Shown one piece after another: positions 27,123 to 46,816 of a stretch of DNA of 50,759 nt; the first letter of the stretch is position 1, and every line of letters begins with the position of its first letter. Source of the stretch: Escherichia phage MikeNSara. A program made the position numbers and the translations under genes. Location: the sequence record OR896827.1; one strand, written 5' to 3'. The notes below the pieces were generated by a model, which saw nothing but the letters and a program-made list of their open reading frames with translations, was not told the DNA's origin and did no database searches.

Positions 27123-29120
27123 ATGATTCCAAATATCGAAAAACAAATATCAGCGTTAGGCGAGGCAGTAATAAAAAGCATCCAAGAGCGATTCACGGTT
27201 GGCAATATAGTGCCTTATCCTTATCAGTGCGTTGCGTATGCCGAGATCGCAAAGCGCATGAAAAACTATGAGCATCCTTTCTTTGTTAAGGCTTCTGTGT
27301 CGGCTGGCAAAACATTGATGTTTGCGATGGTTGCGGCGCAATGCCGCAAAATGGGATTGAAAATGATGGTCCTTGCTCGCCAGGCTGAAATTGTTGATCA
27401 GGATTCGGAAGAGATCAGCAATCTTGGCGTGCCAAACTCAATCTATTGCGCCGGACTGAAAACAAAAAGCGCATACTTTCCGATCGTAGTCGGTTCTGAG
27501 GGCACTGTAGTAAACGGATTGTTTAAGTCTTTAGGTGATTATGTTCCGCACGTTATCGGTATTGATGAATGTCACCAGGTGGATTGGGAGGATCTCGCGG
27601 ACGCGATAGAAAATAATGAATCTTACCAGCAGATGACCACTAAGAAGGATTTGCCTGTACTGATTGGAGAAGAACAGCAATTTGATTCCAATGGCGATCC
27701 AATGTTCGGAACAGGGCGCACACAGTACACGGTAATAATCATGGAAATGATGCGCAGGTGTCGCGAGGCATACGGGCACGAATTGCGAATATTCGGTATG
27801 ACTGGATCTGAATTTCGCGGCGTGGTTCCAATACTGGTTGAAGATAAGAACAAAAAGGGATTCTGGCGTGAGCAGGTGACTAACATAGACACAAACTACT
27901 TAATCAAATTCGGTTCTGTAGTGCCAACAAATTTCGGCGACGTAGGCGACCTGGGGTATGACCTTTCAGAGTTCGAAGCCAGTAGCGAGGATGGCGTTTC
28001 AGACTTTGACGCTAAAACATTGCGCAAGATGGAAGAAAAAATCCATCAAGACGCAACAATGACACAGAAAATCATGGCTAAAGTCCATGAGATATGCAAA
28101 GACAGGAACGGAGTTTTAGTTACATGCGCAGGGGAAAGACACTGCAAGGAGGCCGCCGCCGCACTGCCGCCAGGCGTTGAATACAGGATCATAACTGGCA
28201 AGACTGGAGATAATCAGCGTAAAGAGTGGCTGAGGGAGGCATACGAGGGAAAAGTAAAATACATCTTCCAGGTACAGGCGCTTACCACTGGCGTTAACGT
28301 TCCGTTTTGGGATACTTCTGTAATACTGAGAAAGATAGGATCTCTAACATTGCTTATCCAGCTTTTGGGGCGCGGTATGCGACTGCTTAAGCAATGGCAC
28401 ATTGAGCAGGGATTCAAGAAAAAAGACCATCTTGTATTGGATTTTGCCGGTACTATGGATGAGTTAGGGGATTTGTATTTCGATCCAATCCTTGAGCAAG
28501 CGCAATTCCAAAAGAGATTTACAAACGGGAAAGAGCCTAAGACTTGTCCGATATGTGGAACGCTAAACAGCTTTTACGCTCGCCGATGTATGCACGTAGA
28601 CGATAACGGGAAGAGATGCGAGCATTTTTGGACTTACAGAATTTGCGAGGACCAGGTAGATCCGAGAACGAAAAAGATAATCAAGCGCGGTTGCGGAACA
28701 AAAAACGACGTAGTGGCGAGAGTATGCCGTTGTTGCGATATTTCTCTTGTCGATCCTAACGAGAAGTTAAGCGGCAAGCACTACACCAAAAACGATTGGT
28801 GCAACGTTAAATCTTTCCGCGTTGATATGACGAAAAACCAGAAAGGAATTGTTTTTTGCTATGAGCTTGAGGCCAACGGCGACACGTTCAAGGCATACGA
28901 AAGATTTTTCCCTGAGTCAGAAAGCAACATTTGCCGTACGATATGGAGAAAAATAGCATTGCAGCACATACCGGATCGCAAGATTGCTGGTATGGTGGCG
29001 AGCTATAGAAATGCGCGCAAAATAATGTCATACGCTCATCACATCATGCCTCCTGTACGCGTAACGCATCGCAAAAACGGCAAAGGTGAGGATAACATTG
29101 CAAAACGGGAGTTTGTTTAA
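27123..29120 (+). CDS. superfamily 2 DNA helicase (DExH) with C-terminal zinc fingers
   Basis: Walker A-like SAGKT, DExH box (GIDECHQ), C-terminal Cys clusters (CPICG, CRCC); preceded by motif-type promoter. Confidence 0.8.
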   Translation: MIPNIEKQISALGEAVIKSIQERFTVGNIVPYPYQCVAYAEIAKRMKNYEHPFFVKASVSAGKTLMFAMVAAQCRKMGLKMMVLARQAEIVDQDSEEISNLGVPNSIYCAGLKTKSAYFPIVVGSEGTVVNGLFKSLGDYVPHVIGIDECHQVDWEDLADAIENNESYQQMTTKKDLPVLIGEEQQFDSNGDPMFGTGRTQYTVIIMEMMRRCREAYGHELRIFGMTGSEFRGVVPILVEDKNKKGFWREQVTNIDTNYLIKFGSVVPTNFGDVGDLGYDLSEFEASSEDGVSDFDAKTLRKMEEKIHQDATMTQKIMAKVHEICKDRNGVLVTCAGERHCKEAAAALPPGVEYRIITGKTGDNQRKEWLREAYEGKVKYIFQVQALTTGVNVPFWDTSVILRKIGSLTLLIQLLGRGMRLLKQWHIEQGFKKKDHLVLDFAGTMDELGDLYFDPILEQAQFQKRFTNGKEPKTCPICGTLNSFYARRCMHVDDNGKRCEHFWTYRICEDQVDPRTKKIIKRGCGTKNDVVARVCRCCDISLVDPNEKLSGKHYTKNDWCNVKSFRVDMTKNQKGIVFCYELEANGDTFKAYERFFPESESNICRTIWRKIALQHIPDRKIAGMVASYRNARKIMSYAHHIMPPVRVTHRKNGKGEDNIAKREFV

Positions 29121-29539
29121 TGGCTATAACTGATAAAGGCGATTATCTTGAGTTTTACGAAAGGGATCCAACCGACACGAGAAGGGAAGTTAATCACCAG
29201 ATAGATAGTTTTCAGTGGTTGACTTATGCTCATCCTTATTTGCTGGCGTGGCATACGGTAAACGAGAATGAGAAGTCTAAAGCAACGGCGATGATTGATC
29301 AGCAGTCCGGCTTGGTTAAGGGAGTAAGCGATTTCATCATCCTGATTGGTTTAAACGGAAAATACCCCTTTGCAGCGATTGAGATCAAACGAGTGAATAA
29401 ATCAGGCAAGGGGAAAGCATCACCAGTCAGCGATGAACAAAAGGCTTTTTTGCGTCGCGTTCGCAGCTTAGGAGGATTCGCTGCGGTAGCCTACGGATTC
29501 AATCAGTTTAAGTTGGCTATTGAATACATGCTTAAATAG
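29120..29539 (+). CDS. VRR-NUC domain nuclease
   Basis: TAATG overlap with helicase; PD-(D/E)XK core GVSDFIILIG...AIEIK and SDEQKAFL typical of VRR-NUC. Confidence 0.65.
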   Translation: MAITDKGDYLEFYERDPTDTRREVNHQIDSFQWLTYAHPYLLAWHTVNENEKSKATAMIDQQSGLVKGVSDFIILIGLNGKYPFAAIEIKRVNKSGKGKASPVSDEQKAFLRRVRSLGGFAAVAYGFNQFKLAIEYMLK

Positions 29540-29618: not shown

Positions 29619-30344
29619 ATGGCTAAAGATATTTTAGATAAAGACACCCATGACGCATTCGTTAGCTTTGAGCAGTTGGAGAGAGAAACGTTTATAGGGA
29701 ATGCCCTTGCAATTGGAGGCCATTACCATGCAGTAAAGCCAAATCAATATTATAAGGTAAGCGGCAACCGATACGCTGGAAGCACCACGCCTGACGTTGT
29801 GCGCGATATGTGGAGCACGCCTCAAGAGATCGTGGAGTGGATGGAATCAGAATTTGGTGAATACGATCTCGACGCGGCAGCAAGCCAGGAAAACGCAGTT
29901 TGCGAGAAGTTCTATAGCAAGGAAACAAACTGCTTAAAGCGTTGGTGGGGTAGCAACAAGCACGTATGGCTTAACCCGCCGTACAGCAACCCAACTCCAT
30001 TTATCAAGAAAGCAATTGAGCAAATGGAGCACAACAACCAAATTGATGTTTTGTTGCCAGCCGACAACTCTACAGCATGGTTTTATGAGGCGCAGAAAAA
30101 CGCGGCTGAAATCATCTGGATCACTGGTGAGGTTTACGAAGAGGGTGGAGTAGAATACTCCCGCACCGGAAGAATTGCCTTTGTGTCTGGATTGACTGGT
30201 GAGCCTGTGCAGGGAAACAACAAGGGAAGCGTGATTTTTGTCATGCGCAAACTTAAAGAAGGCGAGGAGCAGAAAACGCGATACGTTAAGATCAGCGATA
30301 TTTGCCCTTCTGTAACCGAACGTCGCGCACGCAAACGGAGCTAA
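29619..30344 (+). CDS. dam: DNA N6-adenine methyltransferase (phage Dam family)
   Basis: WSTPQ, DLDAAAS and catalytic NPPYS motifs of phage Dam-type MTases; RBS GGAG; motif promoter upstream. Confidence 0.8.
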   Translation: MAKDILDKDTHDAFVSFEQLERETFIGNALAIGGHYHAVKPNQYYKVSGNRYAGSTTPDVVRDMWSTPQEIVEWMESEFGEYDLDAAASQENAVCEKFYSKETNCLKRWWGSNKHVWLNPPYSNPTPFIKKAIEQMEHNNQIDVLLPADNSTAWFYEAQKNAAEIIWITGEVYEEGGVEYSRTGRIAFVSGLTGEPVQGNNKGSVIFVMRKLKEGEEQKTRYVKISDICPSVTERRARKRS

Positions 30345-30348
30345 CACG

Positions 30349-30606
30349 ATGGAAAAAGAGAGAAGCGTTTATTTAAATGAAACTGGCGAGTGGTTGTTAT
30401 TTCGCGCTATGGTGTGCGATGCACTTGATAAAAACCCTAACGTGAAAAAGATGATTGATTGCGATCCGTGGGAATTTTCAAGCGCATTAGATATGAGCTT
30501 TGAGGAGACAAGAAAACTCCCGCTTGAAAAATGGCACGAACAAATCAGAAATGACATGCAAGAGTTTGTTGATTCGTGGAATTTTCAGCACGGAATGATC
30601 CACTAA
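30349..30606 (+). CDS. hypothetical protein
   Basis: ORF with RBS ACGGAG; stop abuts 20-bp motif. Confidence 0.5.
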   Translation: MEKERSVYLNETGEWLLFRAMVCDALDKNPNVKKMIDCDPWEFSSALDMSFEETRKLPLEKWHEQIRNDMQEFVDSWNFQHGMIH

Positions 30607-30649
30607 TAGCACTTTTTGTTAAAACGCCCGGCCTAGTGTCGGGCATAAT
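30606..30649 (+). promoter_or_regulatory. motif-type promoter cassette
   Basis: ATAGCACTTTTTGTTAAAAC, 18-bp spacer gcccggcctagtgtcggg, CATAAT; the same spacer occurs inverted at 33829..33846. Confidence 0.55.
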
Positions 30650-30681
30650 TATTTCAACGAAGCAAACATGAGGAAATAAAA

Positions 30682-30861
30682 ATGGTGGTATTCGATAAAC
30701 GCGCTTTTAATCTTGCTCAAGAAGTAGCAAAAGGTTCAGTAGAGGGCGGATCAAAGGAAGGATTCCAGTTTGATTGGGGAATCGCGATGTTCTTACTGAA
30801 AGTTGCATACGGTCACGCGCCAATTGAACAAGCGGAGGCATATTATAAGCATGAAGGTTGA
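30682..30861 (+). CDS. hypothetical small protein (59 aa)
   Basis: Not in ORF track (<60 aa); ATG 30682 with RBS GAGGA, ~30 nt downstream of a motif-type promoter. Confidence 0.4.
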   Translation: MVVFDKRAFNLAQEVAKGSVEGGSKEGFQFDWGIAMFLLKVAYGHAPIEQAEAYYKHEG

Positions 30862-31093
30862 GCAAGGAAGAGATGCGGTATGGAATCACGCTAAAGAATG
30901 CGGTATTGCCGACGATATAAAGAAGATCGCGCAATACTTTGATATTGCAGATGTGAGCATAATTAGCGGCGACAAGATGACTTTCCTCAAGGAAAGGCCG
31001 CGAAAAATGGTAAGAGTTCCAGCAGTTCCAACAAAAATTGATTTCAAAGAGGCAATGGCTAAAATCCGAGAGCCTCGCAAATATTATAAATGA
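30851..31093 (+). CDS. hypothetical protein
   Basis: ORF overlapping previous small gene; track start was TTG 30803, ATG 30851 preferred. Confidence 0.4.
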   Translation: MKVEQGRDAVWNHAKECGIADDIKKIAQYFDIADVSIISGDKMTFLKERPRKMVRVPAVPTKIDFKEAMAKIREPRKYYK

Positions 31094-31187
31094 GGATAGT
31101 TATCATGTGGCGCTTGTTTGTTCTACCGTTACCCGTTATCATCGCTGTTACAGTTATGTACCATATAGTAATGAGATAGGTAGCAGA

Positions 31188-32303
31188 ATGAAAAATGTAA
31201 AAATTACAGATGAGCAATTCAAGATCGAACGGGCGGCGGGTAAGACATATAAACAGATCGCTCAAGAGTACGGGATGAATGTGAGAAGCGTCGAGCGTCG
31301 CGCTGCGCGTCTTGCAAAACAAGGACAGGTGTCAACCATTGGAGCGCCTGGTTTTGGTGTTCATGGTGAGTCAGTAATGACAGACAAAGAAGGCAATATA
31401 ATCCTCAAGTGGACAAAAACCAGCAAGGACAAAGAGCAATTAGAAGCATTGATGCGCGCAGCAATGGAGGCGTTTAGCGAGGAAGTGCCGCGATTAGATC
31501 CAGTTCCATTGCAGGAGCGTAACTATAATGAAACGCTTTCATTGTATCCGATCTTTGACATGCACTTAGGAGCTATGGCCCATAAGCACGAATGCGGAGA
31601 AAATTGGGATACAGCTACGGCTGAGCGCGTTATGAATAACTTTATCGACTATGCTTTGATGTGCGCACCGGACAGCGAAAAGGCTGTTATCCTGATTGGT
31701 GGCGATATGCTGCATAGCGACGGCCTGGAGGCTGTGACACCTGCAAGCGGTCACGTACTTGATCAAGATAGCCGATATGCAAAATTGGTTTACGTTGCAA
31801 TCCGCGCAATGCGTCGCGCAATTAATAAAATGCTGTTAAAGCATAAACATGTTGAGGTCCAGATCGTAGAGGGCAATCACGACCAATCAGGAATGATTTG
31901 GCTACGCGCAGCAATGGCGGCAGCATATGAGAACGAGCCGCGCGTTTACGTTGATGTTTCTCCTCGCGTTGTTCACCACACGCAATACGGAAAAACTTTC
32001 CTTGCGTACCATCACGGGCACACAGTGCGCAAACCTGAGACTTTGCTAATGATGTGCGCGTCAGATTGGCGGGAGGACTTCGGAAACTCAAAAACGATGT
32101 ATGCGCACGTAGGGCACTGGCATCACCAGACAGTGACGGAAACGTCGCTTGGGATCGTGGAGGTACATAGCACCCTGGCGGCAAAAGACGCATACGCCGC
32201 GCGAGGTGGCTGGAGATCTCGACGCCGTGCGGCGGTTATCATTTACGACAAAGAGCATGGAGAAGTCGGGCGATTTGTTCACTATCCAGAAATGATGAAT
32301 TGA
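31188..32303 (+). CDS. HTH-containing calcineurin-like metallophosphoesterase
   Basis: N-terminal HTH (KTYKQIAQEYGMNVRSVERRAARLAKQG) fused to phosphoesterase motifs DMHLG, GGDMLHSD, GNHD, HHGH, GHWHH; start moved from TTG 31038 to ATG 31188. Confidence 0.6.
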   Translation: MKNVKITDEQFKIERAAGKTYKQIAQEYGMNVRSVERRAARLAKQGQVSTIGAPGFGVHGESVMTDKEGNIILKWTKTSKDKEQLEALMRAAMEAFSEEVPRLDPVPLQERNYNETLSLYPIFDMHLGAMAHKHECGENWDTATAERVMNNFIDYALMCAPDSEKAVILIGGDMLHSDGLEAVTPASGHVLDQDSRYAKLVYVAIRAMRRAINKMLLKHKHVEVQIVEGNHDQSGMIWLRAAMAAAYENEPRVYVDVSPRVVHHTQYGKTFLAYHHGHTVRKPETLLMMCASDWREDFGNSKTMYAHVGHWHHQTVTETSLGIVEVHSTLAAKDAYAARGGWRSRRRAAVIIYDKEHGEVGRFVHYPEMMN

Positions 32304-32350
32304 TGAATTTTTATTTAAATCAATGACAAATTAAATCAAAAACTTGCAAA

Positions 32351-32378
32351 GGGGCGGCGTTTGTCGCCTCTTTTTTTT
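32351..32378 (+). terminator. intrinsic terminator before lysis cassette
   Basis: GC-rich hairpin followed by T8. Confidence 0.6.
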
Positions 32379-33155: not shown

Positions 33156-33547
33156 TGAGGAAATTTTTACTTACACCAATCGCAATGGCGGTGATCTTGT
33201 CTGGATGTTCAAGCGTTACGCCACTGACCGGATTAATCGGCAGTAAGCCGGAAATCACAGCACAGGCTGGCGCGGAGAACGTGAGGCAGGCAGTTGGCAT
33301 TACAGCAAAGCAGGACGCCAGCACAAAACAGAAAACCACAATAAAGGAATCTGCGGTTGACAAGGTGGACACGTCCAGCAAGAAGCATTTCACAACATCA
33401 ACCATTCAGGCCAATACCATCAAGGCAGACAAAATTCAGGTCGTGCAGGGTAATAACGGCAGATGGTACGATCCAATAATCATATGCGTGGTTGTGTTAA
33501 TTGTGCTGATTTGTCTTTACTGGAGAGAAAAGAAAAAGGAGGCTTAA
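33152..33547 (+). CDS. unimolecular spanin (u-spanin, T1 gp11-like)
   Basis: N-terminal lipoprotein signal with lipobox LSGC plus C-terminal transmembrane helix ([16 protein letters not shown]) and basic tail; overlaps endolysin stop (ATGATG); last lysis gene. Confidence 0.7.
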
Positions 33548-33564
33548 TGCCTCCTTTATTTTTA
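33530..33564. terminator. bidirectional terminator between spanin gene and convergent leftward early operon
   Basis: AGGAGGC-TTAAT-GCCTCCT with A-rich upstream and T-rich downstream flanks; overlaps spanin stop. Confidence 0.7.
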
Positions 33565-33822: not shown

Positions 33823-33866
33823 AATATACCCGACACTAGGCCGGGCGTTTTAACAAAAAATGCTAT
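33823..33866 (-). promoter_or_regulatory. motif-type promoter cassette (leftward)
   Basis: 20-mer 33847..33866 (one A/G change), 18-bp spacer identical to that of 30606..30649 cassette, -10 TATATT; gene ATG 33786 downstream. Confidence 0.55.
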
Positions 33867-43999: not shown

Positions 44000-44209
44000 A
44001 TGGACCAGAACAAAACAGCAAAATATAAATTCACTGACGACTACGGAGACACTATCGACGTTTATCAGCGTGGGAATCAGATCTTTATAGATGGCACTTT
44101 CGAATATGGCCGGATGCCAGACTTTCGGGGAATACTTTCGGCAGATAGCGCGCGACGCATGGCGAACGTGTTAAATAAACTGGCGGCAAAGATTGAGGCG
44201 ATGCAATGA
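44000..44209 (+). CDS. hypothetical protein
   Basis: ORF immediately after upstream stop. Confidence 0.45.
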   Translation: MDQNKTAKYKFTDDYGDTIDVYQRGNQIFIDGTFEYGRMPDFRGILSADSARRMANVLNKLAAKIEAMQ

Positions 44210-44742
44210 AAAAATACACTTTCGAACTGTGGGGCAAGAAGTACGAATTAATGACCAGTAAGCCGATTGTTATCGTTGACCTGGACGGCACACTATCGGA
44301 CGGATCGCATCGTTTGCATTTGCTGCCAACTGAAAACTTGCACCTTACGGAATCGTGGCGCGAGTTTAACAGGGTCGCCGCCGGAGATTCACCTATTAAA
44401 AGCACTATCGCGGTTATTAACGGTTTATGGGTGTCGGGATTTGCCATCGTCATCTTGACCGGACGCAGCGACGAGGTTCGCTATGAAACCTGCAAATGGT
44501 TGAATGAGAACGGCGTGAAGTTTGACGAAATCATCATGCGCCGCCAGGAGGACAACCGAAAGGATACGGTTATTAAAGAAGAAGCCTTGCGCGCTATTGG
44601 CCTGGACAACATTGTTTGCGCCTTTGACGATTCGCCTAACGTGGTTAAGCACTTCCGCAGCTTGGGGGTCACAACCTATCAGGTCACGGAATACGACAAG
44701 CCACACGCTCACATACAATCTCACGGCGTGGAGAAATTATAA
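44206..44742 (+). CDS. HAD-superfamily phosphatase (T4 Pnk phosphatase-domain-like)
   Basis: HAD motif I VIVDLDGTL, motif II ILTGR, C-terminal FDDSP; overall pattern resembles the 3'-phosphatase domain of T4 polynucleotide kinase (from memory). Confidence 0.6.
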   Translation: MKKYTFELWGKKYELMTSKPIVIVDLDGTLSDGSHRLHLLPTENLHLTESWREFNRVAAGDSPIKSTIAVINGLWVSGFAIVILTGRSDEVRYETCKWLNENGVKFDEIIMRRQEDNRKDTVIKEEALRAIGLDNIVCAFDDSPNVVKHFRSLGVTTYQVTEYDKPHAHIQSHGVEKL

Positions 44743-46225: not shown

Positions 46226-46816
46226 ATGAAACGAGACATTATCATCCTTAATGGGCCTCCAGGTTGCGGGAAGGACACTATTGCAGCTTACCTAACAGGC
46301 CATCGTTACCCAGCGGTTAAGGCATCATTCAAGCAACCTATGTTCGACATTGCTTTTTCTATGCTTGGCCCGACTCGATACGATGAATTTATGGACCTGT
46401 ACAACGACCGAGAGCAAAAAGAAAAGCCTCAAGTTATCTTAGGCGGCAAGTCACCTCGACAATTCATGATCTGGATTAGCGAGGATGTAATGAAGCCAGT
46501 TTTTGGAGATCACTATTTCGGGCGTCGAATGGTTGAAGAGATTCACGAGATGTACCGAGATTTGGAGGTTGTGATCAGTGATGGCGGATTCCCCGAAGAA
46601 ATCAAGCCGCTCGTTAAGGCGGGGCATGAGGTGCATATTTGCCGATTGCATCGAGACGGCTTCACGTTTGCTGGCGATTCGAGAGACTACATTGACCTGA
46701 GCGGTTATCACTATCGAATCCATCACTATGATTTCCACTTGCAGGACGGTAAGCCGGAACTGGCTGTAAGCGAGATCGTCAATGCAGTCAAATGGAAGCA
46801 CACACAGATTAAATAG
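46226..46816 (+). CDS. P-loop nucleotide kinase (dNMP-kinase-like)
   Basis: Walker A GPPGCGKDT at N-terminus; overall pattern reminiscent of T4 gp1 dNMP kinase (from memory); RBS GGGGAGAG; stop is TAG of motif. Confidence 0.6.
   Translation: MKRDIIILNGPPGCGKDTIAAYLTGHRYPAVKASFKQPMFDIAFSMLGPTRYDEFMDLYNDREQKEKPQVILGGKSPRQFMIWISEDVMKPVFGDHYFGRRMVEEIHEMYRDLEVVISDGGFPEEIKPLVKAGHEVHICRLHRDGFTFAGDSRDYIDLSGYHYRIHHYDFHLQDGKPELAVSEIVNAVKWKHTQIK

What the first reader, a model, noticed from the sequence alone, without database searches (positions are those of the whole stretch)
31188..32303. HTH domain fused to a calcineurin-like metallophosphoesterase
The protein has a clear N-terminal helix-turn-helix followed by all signature phosphoesterase motifs (DxH, GDxxH, GNHD, HHGH, GHxH) of the Mre11/SbcD-calcineurin fold, with no Rad50/SbcC-like partner nearby. 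It sits with Dam and small unknown genes just upstream of the lysis cassette. A DNA-targeted phosphoesterase or nuclease could act in DNA processing or repair, or could degrade host defence nucleotide signals; the function is not evident from sequence.
Basis: inference. Interest (0 to 1): 0.6.

Follow-up and report, generated by a model that had tools for sequence, protein, structure and literature searches.

The report
DNA-binding metallophosphoesterase of T1-like phages
The gene is real and encodes a DNA-binding domain fused to an intact metal-dependent phosphoesterase, but it is a long-annotated core gene of T1-like phages whose exact job, most likely cutting or trimming DNA during infection, has never been measured.

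Summary
Window 31188-32303 (+) encodes a 371-aa protein with an N-terminal sigma-70 region 4 / LuxR-type helix-turn-helix, a short beta-hairpin and helix linker, and a calcineurin-like metallophosphoesterase (MPE) domain. All five motifs are at the stated places and are 94-100% conserved across 150 distant relatives. No Rad50/SbcC partner exists in the window.

It is not new. The window is a Warwickvirus (Drexlerviridae), about 97% identical in DNA to phage tiwna. The protein is a full-length member of PHROG 704 ("DNA repair exonuclease"), found in 2041 phage records including T1 itself (ST16, 56% identical). The RefSeq note for Klebsiella phage Sushi already names both domains.

One experiment bears on function. 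In phage Bas1, mutations in the 59%-identical syntenic ortholog bas01_0050 allow escape from the DRT7 defence, and expressing that gene is toxic to E. coli.

The gene usually ends the replication operon. In three phage lineages it sits directly before a PNKP-type phosphatase and a dNMP-kinase-like gene. Phage T5 A1 is an analogue, not a homologue.

Best reading (0.5): a stand-alone, helix-turn-helix-tethered DNA nuclease that processes or degrades DNA. The anti-signalling idea has no support.

The parts
31188..32303 (+). CDS for the helix-turn-helix-metallophosphoesterase protein, 371 aa (PHROG 704)
   Evidence: ORF and translation. PHROG 704 match E=6.6e-149 over the full length. 97.5% nt identity to tiwna gp55. 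The ATG start is supported by homolog N-termini and by short upstream open frames in relatives.
31209..31319 (+). N-terminal tri-helical helix-turn-helix (residues 8-44), sigma-70 region 4 / LuxR-GerE type
   Evidence: Helices at 8-16, 21-28 and 32-44 in the AlphaFold2 model. Sigma70_r4_2, HTH_28 and HTH_23 match residues 16-47. Family-level hits are Sigma70_r4_2 in 14 of 54 members (best 1.5e-9) and GerE in 6 of 54 (best 2.4e-8). The family profile hits PDB GerE at E=0.005.
31356..31478 (+). Linker module (residues 57-97): beta-hairpin plus helix, with conserved G69 and W75; function unknown
   Evidence: Secondary structure (strands 57-65 and 71-79, helix 82-97; pLDDT about 57-64). G69 is 90% and W75 is 93% conserved in 150 representatives.
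31527..32297 (+). Calcineurin-like binuclear metallophosphoesterase domain (residues 114-370)
31557..31565 (+). Motif I, D124-M-H126
   Evidence: 98% and 99% conserved.
31701..31715 (+). Motif II, G172-D173-M-L-H176
   Evidence: D173 100% and H176 96% conserved.
31719..31787 (+). Family-specific insert (residues 178-200, SDGLEAVTPASGHVLDQDSRYAKL) with near-invariant D178, T184, L191, D192, D194 and R196; a candidate substrate-binding loop
   Evidence: Conservation. pLDDT is below 50 for residues 179-192. The substrate-binding role is inferred.
31872..31883 (+). Motif III, G229-N230-H231-D232
   Evidence: N230 and H231 100% conserved.
32010..32021 (+). Motif IV, H275-H276-G277-H278
   Evidence: H276 100% conserved.
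32112..32123 (+). Motif V, G309-H310-W-H312
   Evidence: H310 94% and H312 98% conserved.
32348..32373 (+). Intrinsic terminator closing the transcription unit that ends with this gene
   Evidence: 11-bp stem with 6 GC pairs followed by a T-run. RNA fold energy is -17.6 kcal/mol. Equivalent terminators are annotated after the orthologs in T1 and KpV52, and after the MPE-HAD-kinase trio in Sushi.
27123..29120 (+). SF2 helicase, first gene of the same rightward unit (context)
   Evidence: Pfam ResIII and Helicase_C; tiwna gp49.
29120..29539 (+). VRR-NUC nuclease (context)
   Evidence: Pfam VRR_NUC, E=4.8e-10.
29619..30344 (+). Dam N6-adenine methyltransferase (context)
   Evidence: Pfam Dam, E=9.8e-62.
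30349..31093 (+). Three small conserved ORFs of unknown function (30349-30606, 30682-30861, 30851-31093)
   Evidence: PHROGs 2676, 2180 and 2817, all of unknown function; tiwna gp52-54.
44206..44742 (+). PNKP-type HAD phosphatase. It is encoded directly after the MPE gene in Webervirus, Kagunavirus and vB_YenM_39, but lies elsewhere in this window
   Evidence: Pfam HAD_PNKP, E=4.2e-21. PDB hits Pnkp1 and T4 PNK phosphatase domain, E=3e-6 to 2e-5. 55% identical to the K1G gene that follows the MPE. Adjacency.
46226..46816 (+). P-loop kinase (PHROG 139, 'deoxynucleoside monophosphate kinase'), third gene of the trio in other lineages
   Evidence: PHROG 139, E=1.7e-50. 51% identical to the K1G gene. 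Adjacency. The substrate class is unresolved.

Best explanation
The gene encodes the Warwickvirus member of a very large phage family (PHROG 704): a binuclear metallophosphoesterase tethered to DNA by its own helix-turn-helix. Shown here: the HTH, linker and MPE architecture; a complete and strongly conserved metal site; the absence of a Rad50/SbcC partner; and the position as last gene of the helicase/VRR-NUC/Dam unit, closed by a strong terminator. [quoted passage not shown] Inferred: the enzyme is a Mn2+/metal-dependent DNA exo- or endonuclease with Mre11/SbcD/DP1-type chemistry. The N-terminal sigma-70 region 4 / LuxR-type HTH would hold it on DNA, replacing the Rad50-type clamp. In mid-to-late infection it would trim or degrade DNA ends or host DNA. 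That would feed recombination-dependent replication, dNMP salvage, or both, as T4 gp46/47 does. This would explain its repeated operon link to a PNKP-type phosphatase and a dNMP-kinase-like protein. Its products or DNA ends, or the protein itself, would be what DRT7 responds to.
Confidence: 0.5

Rival explanations
1. It is an end-healing phosphoesterase. The MPE domain would remove 2',3'-cyclic phosphate, 3'-phosphate or other blocking groups from broken RNA or DNA. It would work with the PNKP-type 3'-phosphatase and a 5'-kinase, like the phosphoesterase module of Clostridium thermocellum Pnkp, to repair damage inflicted by host nucleases.
For: The gene is directly followed by a HAD_PNKP phosphatase and a P-loop kinase in three lineages. 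The HAD protein matches the phosphatase domains of T4 PNK and Pnkp1. The F358 homolog lies next to a DNA ligase. That CthPnkp uses an MPE module for end healing is established knowledge recalled from memory, not tested here.
Against: The tiwna annotation, to which the window is about 97% identical, lists no ligase gene, and none of the window's long ORFs is one. The HAD protein would already supply the 3'-phosphatase activity. The kinase is filed as a dNMP kinase by PHROGs. An HTH suits duplex DNA better than tRNA. Toxicity on expression is not expected of a repair enzyme.
Confidence: 0.13
2. It is a small-molecule phosphodiesterase or pyrophosphatase. It would act on cyclic (oligo)nucleotide immune signals, Ap4A, NAD or (d)NTP pools, serving anti-defence or reshaping nucleotide pools.
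For: The MPE superfamily includes cyclic-nucleotide phosphodiesterases and nucleotide pyrophosphatases; MJ0936, Rv0805, the Ap4A hydrolase and YfcE are all among the fold hits. The link to a dNMP-kinase-like gene and a HAD phosphatase is a nucleotide-metabolism context.
Against: An HTH has no obvious role for a soluble small-molecule enzyme. There is no PADLOC hit, though PADLOC holds defence-system proteins rather than anti-defence proteins, so this says little. Acb1 and Apyc1 have other folds, as recalled from my own knowledge. Losing the Bas1 ortholog helps the phage against a defence instead of exposing it. The gene is co-transcribed with DNA enzymes.
Confidence: 0.1
3. It is a transcription or takeover factor. 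The sigma-70 region 4-like HTH would bind promoter DNA or RNA polymerase to switch gene expression near the lysis and late genes, with the MPE domain in an accessory or sensing role.
For: The N-terminus matches sigma-70 region 4 and LuxR/GerE. The gene recurrently lies at the border with lysis, terminase or head genes. T5 A1 is reported to interact with RNA polymerase. Toxicity would fit interference with the host polymerase.
Against: The catalytic residues are 94-100% conserved over very long distances, so catalysis is the selected function. The F358 homolog lacks the HTH altogether, while the MPE core is kept. The Bas1 gene is dispensable, which is unlike a late-gene activator.
Confidence: 0.07
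4. It is a replisome accessory subunit resembling the PolD DP1 or eukaryotic polymerase B-subunits. It would act as a proofreading exonuclease or a scaffold recruited to the host polymerase at the phage fork.
Confidence: 0.05

Closest known systems
PHROG 704 orthologs in T1-like phages: T1 ST16, tiwna gp55, Sushi gp37, Bas1 bas01_0050
   Same: Same protein family over the full length, with the same HTH-MPE architecture and the same locus between the Dam region and the lysis cassette. Identity is 56% to T1 ST16, 59% to bas01_0050, and 99.7% to Kalemo.
   Different: Nothing structural differs. In Webervirus the HAD phosphatase and kinase genes follow directly, whereas in this window they lie about 12-14 kb away. 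The RefSeq start codon for tiwna is 27 codons too early.
Phage T5 A1 (with A2 and Dmp)
   Same: A1 is a predicted metallophosphatase and is toxic to E. coli. It pairs with a DNA-binding function, which is separate (A2) in T5 and fused as an N-terminal HTH in other A1 homologs. It is encoded next to a nucleotide phosphatase. It acts without a Rad50 partner.
   Different: It is not the same family. Profile-profile alignment covers only 36 columns around motif III (E=7e-4, probability 26%), and the two proteins fall in different PHROGs, 1745 and 704. A1 is 556 aa, essential and pre-early. The T1-type gene is dispensable in Bas1 and lies at the end of the replication operon.
Mre11/SbcD (including T4 gp47) nucleases
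   Different: No capping domain, no Rad50/SbcC/gp46 partner, and no significant sequence-profile match (SbcD E=0.31). An N-terminal HTH is present instead.
Archaeal PolD small subunit DP1 and eukaryotic polymerase B-subunits
   Different: No polymerase partner is encoded (none in the tiwna annotation or among the window's long ORFs) and no OB domain is evident. Unlike the eukaryotic B-subunits, the active site is intact.
PdeM / Pseudomonas putida MPE (ligase-associated Mn2+-dependent DNA nuclease)
   Same: A small stand-alone MPE encoded with a helicase and other nucleic-acid repair genes. There are weak matches to TIGR04123 and to PDB 6nvo 'Nuclease MPE'. The F358 homolog lies next to a ligase.
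   Different: It scores far below the family cut-off (16.9 against 150 bits). PdeM has no HTH (recalled from my own knowledge), and the tiwna annotation, about 97% identical to the window, lists no ligase.

Membership tests
Calcineurin-like metallophosphoesterase superfamily | Five motifs carrying the binuclear metal ligands (DxH, GD, GNH[DE], H, GHxH) | tested here: met
   All five motifs are located. They are invariant in 29 close homologs and 94-100% conserved in 150 representatives.
Calcineurin-like metallophosphoesterase superfamily | Alpha/beta sandwich MPE fold | tested here: met
Calcineurin-like metallophosphoesterase superfamily | Pfam PF00149 score above the gathering threshold | tested here: not met
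   16.8 bits against a 21.5-bit cut-off, E=0.0098. Only 9 of 54 family members match at E<0.01. The family is too divergent for the Pfam model, so membership rests on motifs and fold.
Calcineurin-like metallophosphoesterase superfamily | Metal-dependent phosphoester hydrolysis | not testable with these tools
   Needs purified protein.
PHROG 704 (phage 'DNA repair exonuclease') | Full-length profile match | tested here: met
   E=6.6e-149, residues 5-370 on profile positions 3-389 of 390.
Mre11/SbcD nuclease | Rad50/SbcC-type ATPase partner encoded with it | tested here: not met
   None of the window's 10 ORFs of 350 codons or more is such a protein. None is annotated in tiwna.
Mre11/SbcD nuclease | C-terminal capping domain after the MPE core | tested here: not met
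Mre11/SbcD nuclease | Sequence-profile membership | tested here: not met
   The family profile against PDB gives SbcD E=0.31. There is no NCBIfam SbcD or Mre11 hit.
T5 A1 family (PHROG 1745) | Sequence-profile similarity across the catalytic domain | tested here: not met
   hhalign of a 54-sequence profile against a 34-sequence A1 profile aligns only 36 columns around motif III (E=7e-4, probability 26%). BLASTP gives E=0.23.
T5 A1 family (PHROG 1745) | Degradation of host DNA on expression | not testable with these tools
   Only toxicity of the Bas1 ortholog is reported. The fate of the nucleoid was not examined.
PdeM (TIGR04123, ligase-associated MPE) | NCBIfam score above the cut-off, and an adjacent ATP-dependent ligase | tested here: not met
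   16.9 bits against a 150-bit cut-off. No ligase is listed in the tiwna annotation, to which the window is about 97% identical.
PolD DP1 / polymerase B-subunit | OB domain plus a cognate polymerase catalytic subunit | tested here: not met
   No polymerase is listed in the tiwna annotation or found among the window's long ORFs. The N-terminal part of the protein is an HTH plus a hairpin, not an OB fold.
Phage anti-signalling phosphodiesterases (Acb1, Apyc1) | 2H-phosphoesterase fold (Acb1) or metallo-beta-lactamase fold (Apyc1) | tested here: not met
   The model has an MPE fold. The folds of Acb1 and Apyc1 are taken from my own knowledge. Activity on cyclic nucleotides was not tested.
Sigma-70 region 4 / LuxR-GerE HTH | Profile match to the HTH families, and a tri-helical core | tested here: met
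   This protein alone is sub-threshold (18.3 against 25.7 bits). Family members reach 1.5e-9 (Sigma70_r4_2) and 2.4e-8 (GerE). The family profile hits PDB GerE at E=0.005. The three helices are in the model. DNA binding itself was not tested.

The most novel reading that the evidence does not exclude
The HTH-MPE protein is the host-chromosome-degrading nuclease of T1-like phages. It would be a fused functional analogue of T5 A1 plus A2, and possibly the product behind the classical T1 host-DNA-degradation function (the gene 2.5 assignment is from memory and unverified). Together with the PNKP-type phosphatase and the dNMP kinase, it would form a three-enzyme line from DNA to dNDPs. The DNA ends or breakdown products it makes would be the signal that the DRT7 reverse-transcriptase defence senses.
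Probability: 0.22. Interest if true: 0.6.

Novelty: already known. Interest (0 to 1): 0.33.

Why it matters
The family is one of the most widespread phage enzyme families without a measured function. It occurs in 2041 of 50,697 phage records and has 4617 clusters at 50% identity with E of 0.001 or better. It has just been tied to a bacterial defence, as the determinant of DRT7 sensitivity in Bas1. Knowing its substrate would clarify three things: how T1-, HK578- and Jersey-type phages handle host and phage DNA without a Rad50-type partner; what DRT7 senses; and whether the recurring MPE, PNKP-phosphatase and kinase cluster is a salvage line or an end-repair kit. For this window, however, nothing is new. 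The gene is 99.7% identical to deposited, annotated proteins.

Tried and rejected
1. A direct sequence search of the PDB found nothing.
2. A family-profile search of the PDB found only HTH proteins above noise; SbcD (E=0.31) and 'Nuclease MPE' (E=0.58) were at noise level.
3. NCBIfam gave only sub-threshold hits, and PADLOC gave none.
4. I tested homology to T5 A1 by BLASTP, by profile against a single sequence, and by profile against profile. Only the motif III region aligned, so the two were rejected as the same family.
5. A Foldseek search of viral predicted structures returned only uncharacterised phage MPEs.
6. I tried to decide whether the neighbouring P-loop kinase is a dNMP kinase or a polynucleotide kinase, using PDB sequence and profile searches. 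Only P-loop matches came back, so this is inconclusive.
7. The first attempt at search for related loci with the diverse alignment failed for lack of a conserved stretch. A 10-sequence alignment worked but returned mostly close relatives.
8. Literature searches for escapers or for other functional data on the family found only the DRT7 preprint. Its supplement as held contains no list of the Bas1 mutations.
9. The two m6dAMP-sensing defence papers concern the defence systems' own calcineurin-like proteins and T-even denA, not this family.
10. The promoter-like matches around the gene are no more frequent than in shuffled sequence (10 found against 14.9 expected), so no promoter is claimed.

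Full report
**1. What is at the coordinates**

Window 31188-32303 (+) is an ATG-to-TAA ORF of 371 codons. A longer frame is open from TTG 31038. RefSeq calls the tiwna ortholog from the GTG that corresponds to window 31107. That extension is not conserved. All 28 aligned homologs begin at the shared MxxxKITDEQ. In ten relatives only 0-10 in-frame codons are open upstream of that Met.

**2. Where the window comes from**

The window is a T1-like phage. The gene is 97.5% identical in DNA to Escherichia phage tiwna (Drexlerviridae, Tempevirinae, Warwickvirus). The protein is 99.7% identical to that of phage Kalemo. An identical copy lies on an IMG/VR contig (L016).

**3.

The five metallophosphoesterase motifs are at residues 124-126 (DMH), 172-176 (GDMLH), 229-232 (GNHD), 275-278 (HHGH) and 309-312 (GHWH). 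This is far more than chance:
- The ligand positions are invariant in 29 homologs that are 60-86% identical.
- They are 94-100% conserved in 150 cluster representatives that are only 33-56% identical.

The N-terminal helix-turn-helix is sub-threshold for this single protein (Sigma70_r4_2 E=0.0018). Across the family it is secure:
- Sigma70_r4_2 matches 14 of 54 members, down to 1.5e-9.
- GerE matches 6 of 54, down to 2.4e-8.
- The family profile finds GerE and LuxR-type regulators in the PDB.
- The model has three helices at 8-16, 21-28 and 32-44.

Between the two domains lies a beta-hairpin plus helix (residues 57-97) with conserved G69 and W75. It has no recognisable relatives. A family-specific insert after motif II (residues 178-200) carries near-invariant D178, T184, D192, D194 and R196. 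It is modelled poorly, and I take it as a candidate substrate loop; that is inference.

**4. Surroundings**

Upstream on the same strand are an SF2 helicase (27123-29120), a VRR-NUC protein (29120-29539), Dam (29619-30344) and three small conserved ORFs of unknown function. Directly after the gene is a strong intrinsic terminator at 32348-32373, with an 11-bp stem, a U-run and a fold energy of -17.6 kcal/mol. The holin, endolysin and spanin genes follow.

The gene therefore ends the replication and DNA-metabolism unit and is not part of the lysis cassette. No Rad50/SbcC-like ORF exists. The window's ten ORFs of 350 codons or more are terminase, portal, protease, tape measure, tail tip, exonuclease VIII, helicase, the target, a DUF3987 helicase and the tail fibre. 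Against tiwna the gene shows 26 synonymous and 1 non-synonymous codon change, so it is under strong purifying selection.

**5. It belongs to a large, known family**

The protein matches PHROG 704, 'DNA repair exonuclease', over its full length at E=6.6e-149. Searches show how widespread the family is:
- A tblastn search finds it in 2041 phage records, of which 1959 cover at least 80% of the query.
- These include Drexlerviridae, Dhillonvirus, Guernseyvirinae, Jedunavirus and Casjensviridae, plus Vibrio, Rhizobium, Rhodobacter and Flavobacterium phages (taxonomy lines of the records fetched).
- An exhaustive HMMER search of 1.84 billion cluster representatives finds 4617 clusters at E of 0.001 or better, and 1052 at E of 1e-30 or better.

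T1 itself has the gene (ST16, 56% identical, same locus, followed by a terminator). The RefSeq note for Klebsiella phage Sushi gp37 already reads 'contains RNA polymerase sigma factor 70, region 4 type 2 and metallo-dependent phosphatase-like domains'.

**6. Functional evidence from elsewhere**

One preprint bears directly on the family (bioRxiv 10.64898/2026.02.16.706125). Spontaneous mutants of BASEL phage Bas1 that escape the DRT7/UG10 reverse-transcriptase defence carry missense or frameshift mutations in bas01_0050, described as 'a nucleic acid-targeting phosphoesterase'. The authors could not co-express it with DRT7 because it is toxic in E. coli. The equivalent lambda escapers map to gam.

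bas01_0050 lies at the same place, between the helicase unit and the holin gene. It is 59% identical to the target over the full length. By orthology, three properties of the Bas1 gene are likely to hold for this gene too: it is dispensable in the laboratory, harmful to the uninfected host, and the determinant of DRT7 sensitivity.

**7. Gene neighbourhoods**

I looked at annotated or computed contexts in about 20 lineages.

(a) The gene is usually the last gene of a DNA-replication unit, or it sits at the border with lysis, terminase or head genes. Examples:
- T1-like phages.
- KpV52: helicase, primase, MPE, terminator.
- Dhillonvirus: lysis genes, MPE, small terminase subunit.
- RcMcLean and RHph_Y21: after the lysin.
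- Vibrio phages.

(b) In lambdoid temperate phage mEp013, a 66%-identical ortholog lies between the O-like initiator and a DnaB-like helicase.

(c) In Campylobacter phage F358, a 317-aa member without the HTH follows a DNA ligase and lies near a Holliday-junction resolvase.

(d) Most tellingly, the gene is followed directly on the same strand by a PNKP-type HAD phosphatase and a P-loop kinase (PHROG 139, 'dNMP kinase'). This occurs in three lineages:
- Webervirus-type T1-like phages, where the MPE is 62% identical (19 IMG/VR loci, plus Sushi).
- Kagunavirus K1G-type phages, 46% identical.
- Yersinia phage vB_YenM_39, 40% identical.

The window has both partner genes, but elsewhere: 44206-44742 (HAD_PNKP E=4e-21; PDB T4 PNK phosphatase domain) and 46226-46816 (PHROG 139 E=1.7e-50). 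Whether the kinase acts on dNMPs or on 5'-OH ends could not be settled.

**8. A functional analogue: T5 A1**

A1 is encoded with the DNA-binding protein A2 and the dNMP phosphatase Dmp. A1 homologs outside Demerecviridae carry N-terminal HTH Pfam domains, so HTH-plus-MPE has arisen at least twice. The two families are not the same, however. Profile-profile comparison aligns only 36 columns around motif III (E=7e-4, probability 26%). The resemblance is in how the proteins may work, not in membership.

**9. Most likely mechanism**

Shown:
- The three-part architecture and an intact, selected binuclear site.
- The absence of a clamp partner.
- Co-transcription with DNA enzymes.
- For the ortholog: dispensability, toxicity and the DRT7 link.

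Inferred: the protein is a metal-dependent DNA exo- or endonuclease of the Mre11/SbcD/DP1 chemical type. Its own sigma-70 region 4 / LuxR-type HTH would hold it on DNA in place of a Rad50-type ATPase. It would trim or degrade DNA ends or host DNA in mid-to-late infection. That would feed recombination-dependent replication, dNMP salvage, or both, as T4 gp46/47 does (established knowledge). This would explain the repeated operon link to a phosphatase and a dNMP-kinase-like enzyme, the toxicity, and the sensitivity to a defence whose lambda trigger is the RecBCD/SbcCD inhibitor Gam.

I put 0.5 on 'DNA nuclease acting in phage DNA metabolism'. Within that, I put about 0.2-0.25 on host-chromosome degradation specifically. 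The lambdoid ortholog in an early replication module argues against an indiscriminate destroyer.

**10. Rivals**

- An end-healing phosphoesterase working with the HAD phosphatase and the kinase (0.13).
- A small-molecule phosphodiesterase (0.10). This is disfavoured by the HTH, by the toxicity and by the direction of the DRT7 phenotype. The PADLOC miss adds little, because that library holds defence-system proteins.
- A transcription or takeover factor that uses the sigma-like HTH (0.07). This is disfavoured by the conservation of the catalytic residues, and by the F358 homolog, which lacks the HTH.
- A DP1- or B-subunit-like replisome accessory (0.05). The tiwna annotation lists no polymerase, the model shows no OB domain, and the Bas1 gene is dispensable.

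**11. Verdict**

The finding is a correct reading of a real, strongly conserved gene, but it is already known at the level of sequence family and domain architecture. Its biochemical function remains open and is worth testing because of the family's size and the new DRT7 link. This window adds nothing beyond what hundreds of annotated genomes already contain. Interest: 0.33.

Noticed in passing
window 31038-31187: The start codon is miscalled in RefSeq. The tiwna ortholog is annotated from a GTG (window 31107, giving 398 aa), and the mechanical ORF opens at TTG 31038. Relatives have only 0-10 open in-frame codons upstream of the conserved Met, so ATG 31188 is the real start.
   Followed up: yes
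window 30626-30644 (+) and 33828-33846 (-): Two nearly identical GC-rich hairpins (GCCCGGCCTAGTGTCGGG[C/T]) score as terminator-like sites. One lies after the 85-aa ORF and one on the opposite strand beyond the lysis cassette. It may be a reused terminator module or a small repeat.
   Followed up: no
window 33535-33557: A palindromic hairpin is flanked by T-runs on both strands, between the end of the spanin gene and the leftward operon. It looks like a bidirectional terminator. Equivalent paired terminators are annotated in T1 and Sushi.
   Followed up: partly
window 44206-44742 and 46226-46816; L101:4661-5727; L003:7128-8167; L012:5720-6778: A PNKP-type HAD phosphatase and a PHROG 139 P-loop kinase directly follow the MPE gene in Webervirus, Kagunavirus and Yersinia phage vB_YenM_39. 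In this Warwickvirus window they have moved to the early region. Genes labelled 'polynucleotide kinase' in several records contain only the phosphatase domain.
   Followed up: partly
proteins P0342, P0344, P0345, P0346, P0348, P0372, P0384 (homologs of T5 A1, L015:1709-3376): Homologs of T5 A1 that are about 530 aa long and 45-49% identical carry N-terminal HTH Pfam domains (PF13384, PF13936, PF04218, PF02796) in place of the first 13% or so of T5 A1. This is a second, independent HTH-MPE fusion.
   Followed up: partly
L096:6001-7119 (Escherichia phage mEp013): A temperate lambdoid phage carries a 66%-identical ortholog between its O-like initiator and a DnaB-like helicase, inside the early replication module. 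Related copies sit on long E. coli contigs, presumably as prophages.
   Followed up: partly
search results: Records named 'Campylobacter phage' (15 by DNA, 60 by protein; for example A110b, 44 kb, 59% identical) and 'Streptococcus phage MBBL140' (77% identical) carry T1-like orthologs. The host labels are probably wrong, or the lysates were contaminated.
   Followed up: no
L005:14171-14545 (tiwna gp28), corresponding to the head-tail region of the window: A 124-aa gene among the head-tail connector genes is annotated 'ribonucleoside-triphosphate reductase' in RefSeq tiwna. This is almost certainly a propagated misannotation.
   Followed up: no
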